A stretch of 64,000 bases of DNA, from NCBI GenBank assembly GCA_022794615.1, contig JAAWFD010000021.1, positions 12,808-76,807 of the forward strand, in the 5' to 3' direction. Under the pieces are notes generated by a model that saw only the letters and a list, made by a program, of their open reading frames with translations, ran no database searches and was not told where the DNA came from. The stretch is from Clostridia bacterium (GTDB lineage: Bacteria; Bacillota; Clostridia; TANB77; CAG-508). Positions 3,452 through 27,501 of this stretch are shown piece after piece. The position numbers and the translations under genes are program-made. Each line of letters begins with the position of its first letter. The first letter of the stretch is position 1.

Positions 3452-4999
3452 ATGGTTGTAGATGTAAACAAAGAGCAACTAACATTAAACAAACTAATAT
3501 GTGAAAAGAAAGAAACAATAATTGTACAAGGTGATATGATAGTACCAGATGCTAAACCTGACATAATAAATACAATAGATACAAGCGGAATAATAAGTAT
3601 ATATAAAAAAGAAGTATTAGATGGAAAAGTAAGAATAGATGGAAATGTAAATATATATATTATGTATTTAGCAGACAATGGAGAAGATAAAATAAGGGGG
3701 CTAAACACAAATTTAGACTTTTCAGAGAATTTTATAATTCCTGAATGTAGAGGCGAGATGAAAGCGGTACTAGAAACAAATATAAAATTAATAGAATGTA
3801 AAGTATTAAACGGAAGAAAAATAAATGTAAAAGCATCTGTAGAAACAAAAGTAAAAGTATTTGCAAGTGAAGAAACTAGTGTAATATCAGATATAAATAA
3901 CAGCAATATACAAACTTTAAAACCAACATATAAAATAAATACACTAGTAGGTGCAGGAGAGGCAAAAACATATTTAAAGGAAACAATGTCAATAGATAAC
4001 ACAGATAATTTAGCAGAAATACTAAAGGCAAATGTCAATTTAATAGACAAAGATATCAAAGTAAGCTATAACAAGATATTAGCAAAAGCAGAAGCGGAAA
4101 TACAAATAATGTATTTAACAGAAGATAATAGAGTAAACACAACTACAAGCAAATTACCTATTGTAGGATTTGTAGACATACAAAATGTTTCAGAGAATAA
4201 CATATGTGATTCTTCATTTGAAATAAAAAATATAGTATTAAAGCCAAATAGTATAGAAGAACACTCAATATATATAGAAATGGAGATAGAAATATCATGT
4301 CAAAGTTATGAAGAGAGGGAAATTAGCATAATAGAAGATTTATATAGTATATGCAGTAATTTAGATTATACAAAAAATATAATCAGAACAATGGCAAACA
4401 AATGCAAAAGAAAAGAAATGCTAAGCATAAGAGAAAAAGTAAATGTGCCTGAAATTGGAGATAATAGAATTATAGATGTAGAGGTAGTACCAGTTATTCA
4501 AGAAGAAAATAGAATGAATACAAGAGTTAGATATCAAGGAGAATTAAGCTTAACTATAACATATGTAGATAATTCAAGTATAGGCATAAGTAATAAAAAT
4601 GTAAAAGTTCCATTTGACTTTACAGTTGATAATATAAATGTGCCAGAAAACACAGCATTAGATACAGAAATGGAAGTAAAATCAAAAGATTTTATAGTAC
4701 AATCTGGAGGAGATATAAATTGTAATGTAGATATTGAATTTGGAATGGATAGATATGATGATATACAATTAGATATAATAGATGCAGTAAATGAGGAAGA
4801 AGTAGAAGATGAACAAGATTATAGTGTTGTAATATATGTTGTAAAACCTGGTGACACATTATGGAAAATTGCTAAGCAATTTAAAAGTACAGTTGATGAT
4901 ATAGTAAGGGTAAATGGAATTGAAGATTCTAATAAAATAATGGCAGGAGAAAAATTATATATTCCTAAAACTGTTAAAACAAGAGTAAGCTATGTATAA
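3452..4999 (+). CDS. DUF3794 (SPOCS) domain plus C-terminal LysM protein, SipL/SpoVID-like sporulation protein
   Basis: C-terminal LysM signature (VVKPGDTLWKIAKQF...NGIEDSNKIMAGEKLYIP); long N-terminal region resembling clostridial SipL; SD AAGGAGGG. Confidence 0.5.
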   Translation: MVVDVNKEQLTLNKLICEKKETIIVQGDMIVPDAKPDIINTIDTSGIISIYKKEVLDGKVRIDGNVNIYIMYLADNGEDKIRGLNTNLDFSENFIIPECRGEMKAVLETNIKLIECKVLNGRKINVKASVETKVKVFASEETSVISDINNSNIQTLKPTYKINTLVGAGEAKTYLKETMSIDNTDNLAEILKANVNLIDKDIKVSYNKILAKAEAEIQIMYLTEDNRVNTTTSKLPIVGFVDIQNVSENNICDSSFEIKNIVLKPNSIEEHSIYIEMEIEISCQSYEEREISIIEDLYSICSNLDYTKNIIRTMANKCKRKEMLSIREKVNVPEIGDNRIIDVEVVPVIQEENRMNTRVRYQGELSLTITYVDNSSIGISNKNVKVPFDFTVDNINVPENTALDTEMEVKSKDFIVQSGGDINCNVDIEFGMDRYDDIQLDIIDAVNEEEVEDEQDYSVVIYVVKPGDTLWKIAKQFKSTVDDIVRVNGIEDSNKIMAGEKLYIPKTVKTRVSYV

Positions 5000-5026
5000 T
5001 GCAATTATTCTAGAAAAGGGTAAACT

Positions 5027-5743
5027 ATGTATAAAATTTATTCAAGAAAAAGATTAAGATTTGGAATACATAATAATGGAACAAGTATTAATAATAGAAA
5101 GAGACAGTTTAAGTTTGGAAAGATAATAGTTATAGCAATAATAGCATTTGAGACTATAAAAATATTGTTAAATTATATAAACCCCATATATGAAAAGATT
5201 GCAATTGAATCGGCAAAATCATTAGCTACAATAGTTACAAATGAGCAGTCAACAATTGTTATGAAGCAACATACTTATGATAATATGTTTTCAATTGAGA
5301 AAGATAATAACGGAAATATAAGTATGATAAAATCAAATATATCTGAAATAAATGAAATTATTTCAGATATTGCTAATTTAGTGCAAGAAAATTTAAATGA
5401 CTCTAGAGAAAATGAAATTAAAATTCCACTAGGTAGCTTTTCAGGTATATCTCTATTCTCAGGAACGGGACCTAGAGTGAAGATGAATGTAGTTTTACTA
5501 GGAAATGTTGATACAGAACTAAGAAGCGAATTTATATCTAAGGGGATAAATCAAACATTACATAGAGTATATCTGCAAATAGATTGTAAAGTAAAAGTCT
5601 TATCTGCTTATAAAGATTTGAATTCGAATATTTCAAATCAAGTTTTGCTTATTGAAAATGTGATAGTTGGTCAAATTCCATCAACTTATTATAATTTAGA
5701 GGGATTACAAACATATGAAGATACACTTAATATAATAGATTAA
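5027..5743 (+). CDS. yunB: sporulation protein YunB
   Basis: 238 aa, N-terminal TM, central/C-terminal region typical of YunB family (GSFSGISLFSGTGPRV..VLLGNVDTEL). Confidence 0.55.
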   Translation: MYKIYSRKRLRFGIHNNGTSINNRKRQFKFGKIIVIAIIAFETIKILLNYINPIYEKIAIESAKSLATIVTNEQSTIVMKQHTYDNMFSIEKDNNGNISMIKSNISEINEIISDIANLVQENLNDSRENEIKIPLGSFSGISLFSGTGPRVKMNVVLLGNVDTELRSEFISKGINQTLHRVYLQIDCKVKVLSAYKDLNSNISNQVLLIENVIVGQIPSTYYNLEGLQTYEDTLNIID

Positions 5744-20556: not shown

Positions 20557-21579
20557 ATGAATGTATCAGATTTTAATTATTATTTACCAGAAGAATTAAT
20601 CGCCCAAGTACCAATAAGCAAAAGGGATGAATCAAGACTAATGGTACTAAATTGTAAAAAACAAACAATAGAACATAAGGTATTTAAAGATATAATAGAT
20701 TACTTTGAAGAAGGAGATTGTCTAGTAAGAAATAACACAAAAGTATTACCAGCACGATTATATGGGCAGAAAGAAACAGGAGCGAAAGTAGAATTTCTAT
20801 TATTAAATCAAATAGAAGGAGACATATGGGAAACAGCCGTTAGACCAGGAAACAAGCTACATAAAGGAGCAAAGGTAATATTTGGCAATGGACTATTAAA
20901 AGCAGAAGTAATAGACACAATGGAAGGTGGAACAAGAAAAGTAAAATTCGAATATAAAGGAATATTCAATGAAATATTAGACAAACTTGGATTAATGCCA
21001 TTACCACCATATATACATGAAGAATTGAAGGAAAATGACAGATATCAGACAGTATATGCAAAATATCGAGGCTCAGCGGCAGCACCAACAGCTGGATTAC
21101 ATTTTACTGAAGAGCTAATAGAAAAACTTAAACAAAAAGGTGTAAAAATTGCTAATGTTACATTACATGTTGGAATAGGAACATTTAGACCTGTAAAAGT
21201 AGAAAAGATTGAAGAACATCATATGCATTCAGAGCATTTTTATATAAAACAAGAGGATGCAGAAATAATAAACGAAACAAAAAGACAGGGAAAACGCATA
21301 ATCTCAGTAGGTACAACATCTACTAGAGTATTAGAAACTGTAGCAGATGAAAAAGGACTTGTAAAAGAAACAGAAGGAGATACACAAATTTTCATATATC
21401 CAGGGTACACATTCAAGTGTATAGATGGACTAATAACTAATTTTCATTTACCAGAATCAACACTACTAATGCTAGTATCAACATTAGCAGGAAGAGAATA
21501 CATATTAAAAGCATATGAAGAAGCAGTAAAACAAAAATATAGGTTTTTCAGCTTTGGAGATGCCATGTTTATAAGTTAG
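20557..21579 (+). CDS. queA: S-adenosylmethionine:tRNA ribosyltransferase-isomerase
   Basis: [19 protein letters not shown]... typical QueA N-terminus; 340 aa. Confidence 0.9.
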
Positions 21580-21836
21580 CCGTTCGAACGAAGTGAGTTA
21601 CGGATAACTTATGTAAATAACATGAAATGTTATTTACATACATTTAAAAAGCCATTCGAACAAAGTGAGTTACGGATAACTTATGGAAATAACATGAAAT
21701 GTTATTTCCATACATTTAAAAAGCTGTTCGAACAAAGCGAGTTAGGATAACTTATGTAAATAACATGAAATGTTATTTACATACATATAAAAAGCCATTC
21801 GAACAAAGCGAGTTAGGATAACTTATGGAAATAAAA
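21580..21836. repeat. tandem repeat, ~71-72 bp unit x 3.6 copies, each with an 11-bp-stem palindrome (gtaaataacat gaa atgttatttac / ggaaataacat gaa atgttatttcc)
   Basis: Units start at 21580, 21651, 21723, 21794 (gccRttcgaacaaagYgagtta(c)ggataacttatg...); contiguous, no spacers. Confidence 0.8.
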
Positions 21837-21932
21837 TCCAACCATAATTCATTAGAGACAGAAAAAAATCATCAACAACAAAATAAAGAAGAAATTGAAA
21901 ATGAAATATAGAAAATAAACAGAAAGGGATAA

Positions 21933-23060
<1,128 letters not shown>

Positions 23061-25374: not shown

Positions 25375-27501
25375 ATGAAAATAATAAAAAGAGATGGAAG
25401 AGCTGTAGATTATGATAGACAAAAGATAGTAATAGCAATTGAAAAAGCAAATCAAGAAGTAAGAAAACATGAAAGAGCAAGTAAGGAAGATATCAAGCTA
25501 ATAATTGACTATATAGAAGATTTAGACAAAAAAAGAATGTTAGTAGAAGATATACAAGATATAATAGAAGAAAAATTAATGGAATTAAATAAATATGAAT
25601 TAGCCAAAAAATATATAGTATATAGATATACAAGAGCACTAGTAAGAAAACAAAACACAACAGATGAATCAATATTAGGACTAATAAGAAAAACAAATAC
25701 AGAATTAATGGAAGAAAACTCTAACAAAAATGCAATAATAGCATCAACACAAAGAGATTTAATTGCAGGAGAAGTTTCAAAAGATTTAACAAAAAGAATG
25801 CTATTACCAGAAAAAATAACAAAAGCTCATGAAGATGGAGTTCTACATTTCCATGATGCAGATTACTTCCTACAACCAATATTTAATTGTTGCTTAATAA
25901 ATATAGGAGACATGTTAGACAATGGAACAGTAATGAATGGAAAGTTGATGGAAACACCAAAAAGTTTCCAAGTAGCATGTACAATAACAACACAAATTAT
26001 AGCCTCAGTAGCAAGTAGCCAATATGGTGGACAATCAGTTGATATAAAACATTTAGGAAAATACCTAAGAAAAAGTTACAACAGATTCAAAAAAGAATTA
26101 ACAGAAGAGTACAAAGACAAATTAAGTGAAGATTTAATAGAAGACTTAACACAGACAAGATTAAGAACAGAACTAAGACAAGGTGTACAAACTATACAAT
26201 ATCAAATAAATACATTAATGACAACAAACGGACAATCACCATTTGTAACATTATTCCTAAACTTAGAAAAAGATGATGAATATATAAAAGAAAATGCAAT
26301 GATAATAGAAGAGATATTAAAACAAAGATATCAAGGAATAAAAAACGAAAAGGGAGTATATGTAACACCAGCATTTCCTAAGTTAATATATGTATTAGAC
26401 GAGCATAACTGTTTAAAAGGTGGAGAGTATGACTATTTAACAAAATTAGCTGTAAAATGTTCATCAAAGAGAATGTATCCAGATTACATATCAGCAAAGA
26501 AAATGCGTGAGAATTATGAAGGAAATGTATTTAGTCCAATGGGATGTAGAAGTTTCTTATCACCATGGAAAGATGAAAATGGAGAATATAAATTTGAAGG
26601 AAGATTCAACCAAGGTGTAGTAAGCATCAATTTACCACAAGTAGGAATAATAGCAGATGGAGATGAAGAAAAGTTTTGGAAACTACTAGATGAAAGATTA
26701 GAACTATGTAAAGAAGCATTAATGTGTAGACACTATTCATTAATAGGAACATCATCAGATGTAAGCCCAATACATTGGAGATATGGAGCGATAGCAAGAT
26801 TAGAGCCAGGGGAGAAAATAGACAAATTATTAAAAGGAGGATACTCAACATTATCATTAGGATATATAGGAATATATGAACTAACAAAAGGAATGAAAGG
26901 CGTATCACAAACAGCCCCAGAAGGTCGTGAATTCGCATTAAAAGTAATGAAACATTTAAATGAGACAGTTGCTAGATGGAAAAAAGAAAGTGGGCTAGGA
27001 TTTGCACTATATGGAACACCAGCAGAGAGTTTATGCTATAGATTTGCACGTATAGACAAAGAAAAATTTGGAAATATAGAAGACATTACAGACAAAGGAT
27101 ATTATACAAATTCATATCATATAGATGTAAGAGAAAAGATAGATGCATTCAGCAAATTATTATTTGAAAGTGAATTCCAGAAATTATCTACAGGGGGAGC
27201 AATATCATATGTAGAAATACCAAATATGGAAAAAAATCTAACAGCATTAGAAGATTTAGTACAATTTATATATGACAATATACAATACGCAGAATTCAAT
27301 ACAAAATCAGACTATTGCCATATATGTGGATATGATGGAGAAATAATAATAAATGACAATAATGAATGGGAATGCCCACAATGTGGAAATAAAGACCATA
27401 GCAAAATGAGTGTAACAAGAAGAACATGTGGATATTTAGGTGAAAATTTCTGGAATGCAGGAAAGACAAAAGAAATTAAATCAAGAGTATTACATTTATA
27501 A
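25375..27501 (+). CDS. nrdD: anaerobic ribonucleoside-triphosphate reductase (class III)
   Basis: C-terminal zinc ribbon (CHICGY...CPQCG) and glycyl-radical motif RRTCGYLG; start chosen at MKIIKRDG behind SD AAGGAGGAAG (ORF track begins 10 codons earlier). Confidence 0.9.
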   Translation: MKIIKRDGRAVDYDRQKIVIAIEKANQEVRKHERASKEDIKLIIDYIEDLDKKRMLVEDIQDIIEEKLMELNKYELAKKYIVYRYTRALVRKQNTTDESILGLIRKTNTELMEENSNKNAIIASTQRDLIAGEVSKDLTKRMLLPEKITKAHEDGVLHFHDADYFLQPIFNCCLINIGDMLDNGTVMNGKLMETPKSFQVACTITTQIIASVASSQYGGQSVDIKHLGKYLRKSYNRFKKELTEEYKDKLSEDLIEDLTQTRLRTELRQGVQTIQYQINTLMTTNGQSPFVTLFLNLEKDDEYIKENAMIIEEILKQRYQGIKNEKGVYVTPAFPKLIYVLDEHNCLKGGEYDYLTKLAVKCSSKRMYPDYISAKKMRENYEGNVFSPMGCRSFLSPWKDENGEYKFEGRFNQGVVSINLPQVGIIADGDEEKFWKLLDERLELCKEALMCRHYSLIGTSSDVSPIHWRYGAIARLEPGEKIDKLLKGGYSTLSLGYIGIYELTKGMKGVSQTAPEGREFALKVMKHLNETVARWKKESGLGFALYGTPAESLCYRFARIDKEKFGNIEDITDKGYYTNSYHIDVREKIDAFSKLLFESEFQKLSTGGAISYVEIPNMEKNLTALEDLVQFIYDNIQYAEFNTKSDYCHICGYDGEIIINDNNEWECPQCGNKDHSKMSVTRRTCGYLGENFWNAGKTKEIKSRVLHL

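What the first reader, a model, noticed from the sequence alone, without database searches (positions are those of the whole stretch)
21580..21836. 71-bp tandem repeat (3.6 copies) with compensatory palindromes between queA and tgt
Directly after the queA stop there are four head-to-tail units. Each contains GTTCGAAC, and units 1 and 3 carry gtaaataacat-gaa-atgttatttac (11-bp stem) while units 2 and 4 carry ggaaataacat-gaa-atgttatttcc. The alternation preserves pairing through a t to g / a to c double change. Covariation of this kind implies the hairpin, as RNA or cruciform, is functional. It is not a CRISPR array because there are no spacers. It could encode tandem small RNAs or terminator/antiterminator modules, or be a protein-binding array.
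Basis: seen in the sequence. Interest (0 to 1): 0.55.

Follow-up and report, generated by a model that had tools for sequence, protein, structure and literature searches.

The report
Amplified hairpin repeat element between queA and tgt
The tandem repeat after queA is real, but it is a locally amplified copy of a short hairpin-forming repeat element scattered through the genomes of many uncultured gut Clostridia, so it is probably a selfish or neutral repeat and not a dedicated regulator of the queuosine genes.

Summary
The array is real: window 21578-21834, period 72/72/71, 3.6 copies, 92% match. Details need correcting. The palindrome has a 14-bp stem and a GAA loop, and occurs three times, not four. 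GTTCGAAC occurs only in units 1 and 3.

The conserved heart of each unit is not the palindrome. It is a second hairpin (P1) whose core, AGCYRTTCGAACRAAGYGAGTTA, matched exactly at 61 places in 55 contig stretches from 40 assemblies, about 0.3 expected by chance. Nearly all are uncultured gut Clostridia; one is Listeria and one Desulfovibrio. A variant occurs in Aerococcus. P1 stems covary strongly.

Family copies are intergenic, lie beside unrelated genes, are nested inside one another, and form tandem arrays elsewhere. Filled and empty sites exist: a clean 39-nt indel at this very locus, and an empty ctsR-mcsA site.

The window array reads a-b-a-b-a-b-a, where a is the 42-nt P1 module and b is a 30-nt local spacer. 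The palindrome is the a/b junction, at the position of a variable second hairpin found in about half of family copies.

Only unit 1 keeps a stable P1. No Rfam family matches. I read it as a new REP/MITE-like hairpin repeat family amplified locally by recombination. Transcription and any host function are untested.

The parts
20557..21579 (+). queA (340 aa). Its last codons and stop, ATA AGT TAG (21571-21579), form the outer left arm of the P1 hairpin of unit 1.
   Evidence: ORF; PF02547. The ATAAGTTAG/ATAACTTAT pairing appears in the folds and in the model alignment. More distant QueA proteins end in FIV, FIK, FII, FIQ or FIN rather than FIS. L109 ends ATA ATA TGA.
21568..21619 (+). P1 hairpin of unit 1, a canonical family member. 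Outer stem TAAGTTA/TAACTTA, inner stem CCGT/ACGG, conserved loop TCGAACGAAGTGAGTT.
   Evidence: Covariance model R1 scores 71.6 bits, E 4.8e-17. RNA fold -12.8 kcal/mol, z -3.55; DNA fold -9.6, z -5.5.
21578..21619 (+). Module a1 (42 nt): AGCCGTTCGAACGAAGTGAGTTACGGATAACTTATGTAAATA.
   Evidence: Unit layout. The a/b split comes from comparison with L020 and L109.
21620..21649 (+). Spacer b1 (30 nt): ACATGAAATGTTATTTACATACATTTAAAA. It is homologous to the sequence that spans and follows the queA stop codon in the sister lineage L109.
   Evidence: Read by eye; about 28 of 32 positions are identical for the b2 version.
21650..21721 (+). Unit 2 (a2 + b2). P1 has lost its outer left arm and has an A.C mismatch in the inner stem. 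The palindrome is the G:C version.
   Evidence: R1 scores 42.9 bits. The P1 fold is no better than shuffles, z -0.87.
21722..21792 (+). Unit 3 (a3 + b3, 71 nt). P1 is degraded (T>C in the loop helix, C deleted in ACGG). The palindrome is the T:A version.
   Evidence: R1 scores 25.9 bits. P1 fold z -0.12.
21793..21834 (+). Module a4. It is a complete a module ending in GGAAATA, not a truncated unit, and no b follows it.
   Evidence: R1 scores 22.6 bits over 21784-21833. The a module in L020 ends at the same point...GTGGAAATA|GCTAAG.
21610..21640 (+). Palindrome H2-1 (14-bp stem, GAA loop, T:A at stem position 5). It is formed by the 3' end of a1 and the start of b1.
   Evidence: Inverted repeat I7, 100% complementary. 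RNA fold -12.1 kcal/mol, z -5.45.
21682..21712 (+). Palindrome H2-2 (G:C at stem position 5).
   Evidence: Inverted repeat I9. RNA fold -14.3 kcal/mol. Hypothetical uncompensated versions fold at -8.0 and -7.4.
21753..21783 (+). Palindrome H2-3 (T:A at stem position 5).
   Evidence: Inverted repeat I8.
21835..21935 (+). A-rich spacer carrying the tgt ribosome-binding site (AAAGGGA). It lacks the TTGCAA-17-TAAAAT promoter that precedes tgt, or an inserted gene, in relatives.
   Evidence: No promoter-like site on the + strand in 21580-21935. The promoter is seen in L020, L024, L027 and L109.
21936..23060 (+). tgt (374 aa), same strand as queA. It is probably co-transcribed with queA through the array; this is an inference.
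   Evidence: ORF; PF01702.

Best explanation
The array is a local amplification of one member of a dispersed family of short hairpin-forming intergenic repeats, of the REP/MITE kind, found in a clade of uncultured gut Clostridia.

Shown:
- The family's core is a roughly 40-nt module. It has a hairpin (P1) with covarying stems and a nearly invariant loop, TCGAACGAAGTGAGTT.
- About half of family copies carry a second hairpin (H2) directly after P1. Its stem sequence varies between copies.
- Copies are present or absent between close relatives. They sit inside each other's loops and form tandem arrays at several unrelated loci.
- At this locus the structure is a-b-a-b-a-b-a: four P1 modules alternating with three copies of a 30-nt local spacer.
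- The palindrome is the junction of a and b, at the family's H2 position.
- Only the first P1 is intact.

Inferred:
- A module entered the 3' end of queA in an ancestor and supplied the present Ser-stop codons AGT TAG.
- Two a modules flanking b then allowed unequal recombination or replication slippage. This expanded and contracted the array and shuffled variant sites between units.
- The T:A/G:C difference is one double substitution in a perfect palindrome, copied when a double unit duplicated.
- It was kept either by selection for the hairpin or by hairpin-templated correction.
- The array is read through in a queA-tgt transcript. There the three stems of -12 to -14 kcal/mol may incidentally slow 3' exonucleases, as REP elements do. 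No dedicated function is required.
For: Family membership.
- The 23-nt core pattern matched 61 times in 55 stretches from 40 assemblies, with several loci per genome. My estimate of chance matches in 596 Gb is about 0.3.
- P1 covaries: 96.8% of cells are paired, and 42 cells carry changes on both sides against 6.9 in shuffles (0 of 500 shuffles reach this). Slid controls give 16-43% pairing.
- Window units score 71.6, 42.9, 25.9 and 22.6 bits with the P1 model. The model gave 80 matches at E up to 0.05 in the 57 loci searched, many of them clustered.

Selfish or generic character.
- 59 of 61 copies lie outside ORFs of at least 100 aa.
- Downstream genes are unrelated in function: UPRTase, PNP, FabD, DHH, L10, M24, thioesterase, HAD, NUDIX.
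- Nested copies interrupt a host copy at CGAAGT^GAGTTAC (L056, L057, L078, L074). L040 has head-to-tail 58-nt units. L047 (77 nt), L060/L033/L034 (70 nt) and L057 (138 nt) have arrays in which only the first unit keeps the full P1, as in the window.
- Filled and empty sites exist. A clean 39-nt indel of the P1 core separates L020 from L109 at this very locus, with identical flanks. The ctsR-mcsA spacer is 17 nt and empty in L102/L103 but filled in L067, L092 and L095.
- Orthologous old copies are decayed while dispersed copies share an identical core.

Local amplification.
- The a/b anatomy follows.
- Variant sites form a mosaic across units.
- Assemblies with an identical QueA carry 2.6 (L001) and 1.6 (L005) copies, and many contigs break inside the array.

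Decay.
- P1 folds of units 2 and 3 are no better than shuffles.

H2 as a family module.
- 15 distinct stems occur at a fixed offset after P1, several with a GAA or AAA triloop.
Against: - No transposase or other mobilising enzyme was found. A Y1-transposase motif scan of all fetched loci was negative, and none of 6 Aerococcus copies lies next to a transposase.
- The polarity of the indels (insertion or precise deletion) is not established. No target-site duplication beyond an ambiguous AAA is visible.
- All three palindromes are perfect while P1 decays in the same units. This could mean the palindrome is under selection at this locus for a host function.
- Copies are mostly co-oriented with flanking genes: 19 versus 6 between co-directional genes, not corrected for orthologous loci. 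H2 stems show G.T but no A.C cells, 5 versus 0. Both would also fit an RNA-level role.
- The near-identical loop in Listeria, Desulfovibrio and, as a variant, Aerococcus suggests a specific binding partner that I could not name.
- Copy-number variation may partly be assembly collapse. L005 comes from what I believe is a k=31 assembly, and units 1 and 3 share a 42-nt identity.
Confidence: 0.7

Rival explanations
1. The array acts in the queA-tgt mRNA as an intercistronic stabiliser, processing barrier or insulator. The three perfect 14-bp hairpins protect the upstream queA message or set the queA:tgt ratio, and are kept by selection. The element was domesticated from the repeat family.
For: - No promoter-like or terminator-like site lies between queA and tgt on the + strand, while relatives carry a TTGCAA-17-TAAAAT promoter there. 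The array is therefore probably inside a transcript.
- The palindromes stay perfect while P1 decays.
- There are two compensatory double changes in H2: T:A/G:C within the array, and C:G/T:A against L109.
- Uncompensated versions lose 4-7 kcal/mol.
- Family copies are mostly sense to their neighbours, and several abut stop codons or sit just after -10 boxes.
Against: - There are no expression data.
- Close relatives do without the array (L109, L024, L027).
- Copy number appears variable.
- The same anatomy occurs next to unrelated genes.
- Perfect palindromes can be maintained by templated correction without selection (my own knowledge, not tested).
Confidence: 0.2
2. The array encodes tandem small RNAs, or an antitoxin-like or CRISPR-like processed repeat RNA that acts in trans.
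For: Tandem direct repeats of a structured unit. The region folds far better than shuffles on both strands, z -7.9 and -8.9. Arrays of family units recur at other loci.
Against: - No Rfam family matches. The best hit is RF02920 at 24.6 bits against a gathering score of 52.1, on the opposite strand. None matched at the element positions in 18 other loci.
- No promoter is predicted for the units.
- The downstream gene is tgt, not a ToxN/AbiQ-type nuclease.
- The 'spacer' b is the same sequence in every unit, unlike CRISPR spacers.
- Units 2-4 have lost the family's conserved hairpin.
Confidence: 0.04
3. The array is a DNA-level array of protein-binding sites or cruciforms. For example, a dimeric protein may recognise the GTTCGAAC palindrome or the 31-bp palindrome.
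For: GTTCGAAC is a perfect 8-bp palindrome conserved in canonical family copies. The loop sequence is nearly invariant across distant taxa. The DNA hairpins are stable, -9.9 and -11.0 kcal/mol.
Against: - Units 2 and 4 have ATTCGAAC, which breaks the 8-bp palindrome.
- The invariance of the core among the 61 hits is partly imposed by the search pattern.
- Covariation in the P1 stems points to a folded single strand, not a duplex site.
- H2 stem sequences differ completely between copies, so no sequence-specific duplex site is conserved there.
Confidence: 0.04
4. The array is a private, neutral minisatellite unrelated to anything else, and the paired change arose by chance.
For: No other copy exists in the 64-kb window. 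The window-type palindrome was not found in viral or JGI metagenome contigs except for 5 unrelated AT-rich chance matches. Copy number is possibly variable.
Against: The unit's core occurs at 61 places in 40 assemblies with covarying stems. Unit 1 is a full-scoring family member.
Confidence: 0.02

Closest known systems
REP elements and their clusters (BIMEs) of Enterobacteria and Pseudomonas, with RAYT transposases
   Same: Short (35-60 nt) imperfect palindromes, confined to intergenic DNA and dispersed through the genome. They are often clustered head to tail, often lie inside operons or just after stop codons, and are transcribed passively. Their stems covary. Other elements can insert into their loops; IS1397 insertion into REP loops is from my own knowledge.
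   Different: - There is no GTAG head.
- What is conserved here is the loop, not the stem.
- Clustered copies are all in direct orientation, whereas BIMEs alternate.
- Copy number per genome seems low: up to 5 or 6 exact-core copies per assembled genome, and 6 model hits in 190 kb of Aerococcus.
- No RAYT gene was found.
- The host phylum is Bacillota.
Palindrome-associated transposable elements (PATEs), miniature derivatives of IS200/IS605
   Same: Hairpin-based, with no terminal inverted repeats and no clear target duplication. There is an apparent sequence-specific insertion point (CGAAGT^GAG in nested copies) and a strand bias relative to genes. The GAA triloop closed by C-G resembles the very stable d(GCGAAGC) single-stranded DNA mini-hairpin (PMC13037366).
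   Different: No Y1 (HUH) transposase was seen in any fetched locus. The ends of the mobile unit are not defined. Insertion after a fixed tetranucleotide was seen at only a few nested sites. Mobility itself is inferred from filled and empty sites.
MITE-like repeats of Bacillota and others (BOX, RUP, SPRITE of pneumococcus; Correia; ERIC) and the stem-loop sequence families catalogued by Petrillo et al. (PMC2267715)
   Same: Small, non-coding, structured, dispersed, modular and mosaic repeats. They evolve fast at orthologous sites and can affect neighbouring transcripts.
   Different: No terminal inverted repeats and no TA or other target duplication are visible. The module is much shorter (about 40 nt). 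The exact core sequence gave no hit in a full-text search of the literature.
Type III toxin-antitoxin antitoxin arrays (ToxI and relatives)
   Same: Tandem direct repeats of a structured unit in one orientation.
   Different: The unit is 72 nt rather than about 36 nt. No toxin gene follows; tgt does. The units are decayed copies of a dispersed element.
Rfam RF02920 Fusobacteriales-1 RNA
   Same: A series of AAUGU...ACAUU hairpins in an AT-rich genome. It was the best Rfam hit in bits; mir-4841 had the lower E-value, 0.028.
   Different: The hit is on the opposite strand, scores 24.6 bits against a gathering score of 52.1, and has E 0.55. It arises from the AT-rich palindrome only. The array is not a member.

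Membership tests
Dispersed P1-hairpin repeat family defined here (model R1) | P1 hairpin: outer stem of 7 bp, inner stem CYGT/ACRG, loop TCGAACGAAGTGAGTT. | tested here: met
   Unit 1 scores 71.6 bits, E 4.8e-17. Units 2-4 score 42.9, 25.9 and 22.6 bits. Family covariation is shown.
Dispersed P1-hairpin repeat family defined here (model R1) | A second, variable hairpin directly after P1 (T-R-C/T...stem...loop...stem). | tested here: met
   The window palindromes start at offset 0, like 12 other distinct stems. L056 and L080 also have a GAA triloop.
REP/BIME | Many intergenic palindromic copies per genome. | tested here: inconclusive
   Several loci per assembled genome, but only fragments of genomes were searchable and counts are low.
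REP/BIME | Conserved GTAG head, and alternating orientation within clusters. | tested here: not met
   Copies start TTAAG, and all clustered copies are in direct orientation.
REP/BIME | Cognate RAYT (Y1 transposase) gene flanked by the repeats. | tested here: inconclusive
   A motif scan of the fetched loci and the window found none. Whole genomes could not be searched.
IS200/IS605-derived PATE | Insertion 3' of a fixed short sequence, without target duplication. | tested here: inconclusive
   Nested copies interrupt the host at CGAAGT^GAG in L056, L057, L078 and L074. The 39-nt indel is flanked only by an ambiguous AAA. The queA and ctsR sites differ from this.
MITE | Terminal inverted repeats plus a target-site duplication. 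| tested here: not met
   The inverted repeats are the internal hairpin arms, and no duplication is seen at filled versus empty sites.
Type III toxin-antitoxin | Repeat array followed by a ToxN/AbiQ-type toxin gene. | tested here: not met
   The downstream gene is tgt (PF01702), followed by a protein with a faint WG_beta_rep hit.
CRISPR | Identical repeats separated by unique spacers. | tested here: not met
   The interval b is the same sequence in every unit.
Rfam RF02920 Fusobacteriales-1 | Score at or above the gathering threshold of 52.1 bits. | tested here: not met
   24.6 bits, E 0.55, minus strand.
Intrinsic terminator | G+C-rich stem followed by a T-run. | tested here: not met
   No terminator-like site on the + strand between queA and tgt. 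The stems are A+T-rich and are followed by CATTTAAAAAG.
Minisatellite (VNTR) | Copy number varies among strains. | tested here: inconclusive
   Contigs with an identical QueA carry 3.6, 2.6 (L001) and 1.6 (L005) copies. Short-read assembly collapse cannot be excluded, especially for L005.

The most novel reading that the evidence does not exclude
The P1 module may be an undescribed kind of very small (about 40-60 nt) mobile hairpin element. It would choose its targets by base-pairing: its 3' segment is complementary to the flank it lands next to (ATAACTTAT with queA's ATAAGTTAG; TGGAAATA with TATTTCCA of spacer b). It would also insert into the loop of its own copies, building nested and tandem arrays. 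The near-invariant loop would be the handle for an unknown enzyme shared by Clostridia, Listeria, Aerococcus and a Desulfovibrio contig.
Probability: 0.1. Interest if true: 0.75.

Novelty: new member of a known kind. Interest (0 to 1): 0.42.

Why it matters
For the queuosine genes it matters little. The array is not a queuosine-specific signal such as a preQ1 riboswitch, and close relatives lack it.

The wider point is that a conserved, structured 40-nt module recurs across dozens of uncultured gut Clostridia and reaches Bacilli. It has no Rfam model, and its core sequence gave no hit in the full-text literature search. Such elements have several practical consequences:
- They break short-read assemblies. 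Many contigs here end inside the array.
- They rewrite gene ends. queA and ctsR both acquired AGT TAG.
- They can create or remove hairpins in operon transcripts.
- They can be mistaken for regulatory RNAs by covariation-based screens.

If the element is actively mobile, its self-nesting and flank-complementary arms would be worth a mechanistic study.

Tried and rejected
- Rfam at a permissive threshold on the region, and at gathering threshold on 18 family loci: nothing at the element. The hits were a sub-threshold RF02920, microRNA noise, and unrelated tRNA, LhrA, SRP and RT-14 matches.
- Viral contig scans for the core and for the palindrome: 0 hits each.
- Phage database BLAST: no match.
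- JGI metagenome scan for the window-type palindrome: 5 unrelated AT-rich matches.
- Riboswitch or regulon reading: rejected, because downstream genes are functionally unrelated.
- Small ORF 21622-21750 (42 aa, a repeat-derived peptide): rejected. I saw no ribosome-binding site, and the 71-nt unit 3 breaks the frame.
- Y1-transposase motif scan of all loci: one spurious low-complexity hit only.
- GC and AT skew to separate replication-linked from transcription-linked orientation: uninformative, because at 8 kb skew follows the coding strand.
- G.T versus A.C asymmetry: 5 versus 3 in P1, no signal; 5 versus 0 in H2, weak, and some stems are related.
- 'The left arm of P1 is always native target sequence': rejected as a rule. 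The ctsR empty site and distant QueA C-termini indicate that AGTTAG arrived with the element.
- Aerococcus tenax record: 190 kb examined for transposases beside copies, none found.
- Full-text literature search for the core sequence: 0 papers.

Full report
**Observation**

The stretch after queA (stop codon ends at 21579) is a genuine tandem array. Tandem Repeats Finder reports 21578-21834, period 72, 3.6 copies, 92% matches and score 430, plus a 143-bp double-unit period. Laid out in register, the units are 72, 72 and 71 nt, followed by a 42-nt end piece.

It is TATG[T/G]AAATAACAT-GAA-ATGTTATTT[A/C]CATA, a perfect 14-bp stem with a 3-nt loop. It occurs three times, at 21610-21640, 21682-21712 and 21753-21783. 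The fourth unit ends at GGAAATA and has no right arm.

GTTCGAAC is present only in units 1 and 3; units 2 and 4 have ATTCGAAC. Neither the palindrome nor the core has another copy in the 64-kb window, and shuffles expect none.

The flanking genes are valS, queA and tgt, all on the + strand. The window has 27.9% G+C. The one source name attached to its QueA cluster is 'MAG... Clostridia bacterium'.

**The unit belongs to a dispersed family**

I scanned one representative genome per bacterial and archaeal species for the 23-nt core AGCYRTTCGAACRAAGYGAGTTA. My estimate is about 0.3 chance matches in 596 Gb. The scan returned 55 stretches with 61 matches from 40 assemblies.

Nearly all are uncultured gut Clostridia, from mouse, rabbit, ruminant and human samples, with several loci per genome. 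One hit is in Listeria rocourtiae and one in a Desulfovibrio contig. A variant with a different loop centre occurs at 9 places in an Aerococcus tenax record.

Aligned, the copies share a hairpin that I call P1:
- an outer stem, usually TTAAGTT/AACTTAA;
- a G/A mismatch;
- an inner stem CYGT/ACRG;
- a 16-nt loop, TCGAACGAAGTGAGTT. By inspection this loop can continue the helix as C-G, tandem G.A/A.G, A-T, C-G and a GAA triloop.

The core's invariance is partly imposed by the search pattern, but the stems were free to vary, and they covary. 96.8% of cells are paired. 42 cells have changes on both sides, against 6.9 in shuffles (0 of 500 shuffles reach this). Six pairs show compensatory changes, and slid controls give only 16-43% pairing.

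A covariance model of P1 scores the four window units at 71.6, 42.9, 25.9 and 22.6 bits and finds nothing else in the window. No Rfam family covers the element. The best hit in bits is RF02920 on the opposite strand, at less than half its gathering score. Scans of 18 other family loci found only unrelated RNAs. A full-text search for the core sequence found no paper.

**What kind of family it is**

- 59 of 61 copies lie outside ORFs of at least 100 aa.
- The genes downstream have no common function. A riboswitch or regulon signal is therefore excluded.
- Between co-directional genes the copies are sense 19 times and antisense 6 times. This is not corrected for orthologous loci.
- Some copies abut a stop codon, and some sit immediately after a -10 box.
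- Copies cluster. The model gave 80 matches at E up to 0.05 in the 57 loci searched, many of them side by side.
- In L056, L057, L078 and L074 a diverged copy interrupts a host copy exactly at CGAAGT^GAGTTAC. L040 has three head-to-tail 58-nt units. L047, L060/L033/L034 and L057 hold arrays of 77, 70 and 138 nt in which only the first unit keeps the full P1, as in the window.
- About half of the copies carry a second hairpin (H2) starting directly after P1. It has 15 distinct stem sequences, and several have a GAA or AAA triloop.

**Filled and empty sites**

At ctsR-mcsA, three lineages have P1+H2 straight after ...AAT CTA AGT TAG. One lineage has a deletion derivative that fuses the two similar loops. 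Two lineages have a diverged copy. L102 and L103 have only a 17-nt spacer after ...CTA GAA TAA.

At the queA locus itself, two sister lineages, each with 96% QueA identity to the window, differ by a clean 39-nt indel that is the P1 core. Their flanks are otherwise identical.

QueA ends in FIS (AGT TAG) only in the group at 91% identity or above. More distant proteins end in V, K, I, Q or N. L109 ends ATA ATA TGA. I therefore infer that the element supplied the present last codon and stop of queA, as it did for ctsR. Orthologous copies at ctsR are visibly decayed, while dispersed copies share an identical core. This is the pattern expected of sequences that spread by copying.

**Anatomy of the window array**

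Comparison with L020 and L109 resolves the unit into two parts:
- a is the 41-42-nt P1 module, AGCC...CTTATGGAAATA.
- b is a 30-nt piece, ACATGAAATGTTATTTCCATACATTTAAAA.

By eye, b matches at about 28 of 32 positions the L109 sequence that spans the queA stop codon and continues downstream. The array is a-b-a-b-a-b-a, and the so-called truncated unit 4 is a complete a module. It ends where the a module of L020 ends.

The palindrome is the junction of the 3' end of a with the start of b, at the family's H2 position. Only unit 1 has a stable P1. Its left arm is the end of queA (RNA fold -12.8 kcal/mol, z -3.55). P1 in units 2 and 3 folds no better than shuffles. The palindromes fold at -12.1 (T:A) and -14.3 (G:C) kcal/mol as RNA. 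Hypothetical uncompensated versions fold at -8.0 and -7.4.

**The 'compensatory' change**

Three sites alternate between units (1,3) and (2,4). Three others separate (1,2) from (3,4). No simple tree fits both patterns, so units have exchanged segments.

The T:A/G:C difference is one double substitution copied with a double unit, not repeated independent evidence. A second double change in the same stem (C:G here, T:A in L109) and the family-wide diversity of H2 stems do show that pairing is maintained. Whether selection or hairpin-templated correction maintains it cannot be decided here.

**Strain variation**

Contigs that encode an identical QueA or Tgt show the full array (L002, L015), 2.6 copies (L001, a deposited assembled genome) or 1.6 copies (L005). 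Many contigs break inside the array. L005 could be an assembly collapse across the 42-nt identity between units 1 and 3. L001 would need a jump across only about 23 identical bases and is more likely real.

**Mechanism and verdict**

I commit to a locally amplified cluster of a REP/MITE-like hairpin repeat, expanded by recombination between the a modules (confidence about 0.7).

It is probably read through in a queA-tgt transcript, because the promoter seen upstream of tgt in relatives is absent here and no terminator is predicted. The main rival is that the palindromes have been co-opted as an intercistronic RNA stabiliser (about 0.2).

How the family moves is unknown. No transposase was found near any copy.

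Noticed in passing
L045 3921-4067 (also L066, about 1420 onward): A full-scoring RT-14 RNA (RF02921, 74.9 bits) lies about 120 nt downstream of two family copies. The sequence just upstream of the copies is rich in AAC codons and near-identical between L045 and L066 of the same genome. This looks like the template and variable repeats of a diversity-generating retroelement.
   Followed up: partly
L020/L021 4224-5540 and L109 3696-5033: The closest relatives (96% QueA identity) carry an extra gene of 438-445 aa with no Pfam hit, plus a terminator and a TTGCAA-17-TAGAAT promoter, between queA and tgt. This window has none of these.
   Followed up: partly
L024/L025 4024-4190: A relative with 93% QueA identity has a different tandem duplication (about 85 nt, two copies) after queA. 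Each copy has its own hairpin with a GCAAAG-type loop. Fragments resembling the right half of P1 (GTTACGGATA) lie just after the tgt promoter.
   Followed up: no
L054 220-480: A 23-nt duplicate of the 5' part of a tRNA gene (GCTACTGTAGCTCAGTTGGTAGA) is followed by nested family copies. The intact tRNA lies about 150 nt downstream. It looks as if the elements landed in the tRNA gene and its 5' part was duplicated.
   Followed up: no
L053 322-611: In Listeria rocourtiae the family copy sits 5 nt after the end of the Hfq-binding small RNA LhrA (RF00615, 151 bits).
   Followed up: no
L037 2189-2211 (+) and 5317-5339 (-); L052, L046: P1 is embedded in a longer repeat of about 130 nt (TATATTCTTAGGAAAGTCATCCACG...GGTGAGTTTCCTTAGAAGATA). 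This repeat recurs at several loci and in two genomes. Two inverted copies flank a 3-kb segment that includes a deaminase-like gene.
   Followed up: partly
L096, L097, L101 (upstream of ctsR): A PF04754 (Transposase_31, YhgA/Rpn-like) gene lies about 500 nt upstream of ctsR in several lineages that carry family copies in the ctsR-mcsA spacer. L100 instead has a gene with an IS240-type DDE domain (PF13610) and a weak IS66-type hit.
   Followed up: no
L086, L106-L108 (CP127381.1): The Aerococcus tenax record deposited as a 591-kb plasmid starts at dnaA-dnaN and carries gyrBA, rpoBC and the ribosomal protein operons. Its content looks chromosomal.
   Followed up: no
window 21622-21750 (+): A 42-aa ORF runs through the repeats (MKCYLHTFKKPFEQSELRITYGNN, read twice). 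It starts at the ATG in the palindrome loop. I saw no ribosome-binding site, and the 71-nt unit 3 ends the frame, so I judge it spurious.
   Followed up: yes
window 4981-5050 and 26093-26165: Two other short tandem duplications were reported by TRF: 35 nt x 2.1 copies and 36 nt x 1.9 copies.
   Followed up: no
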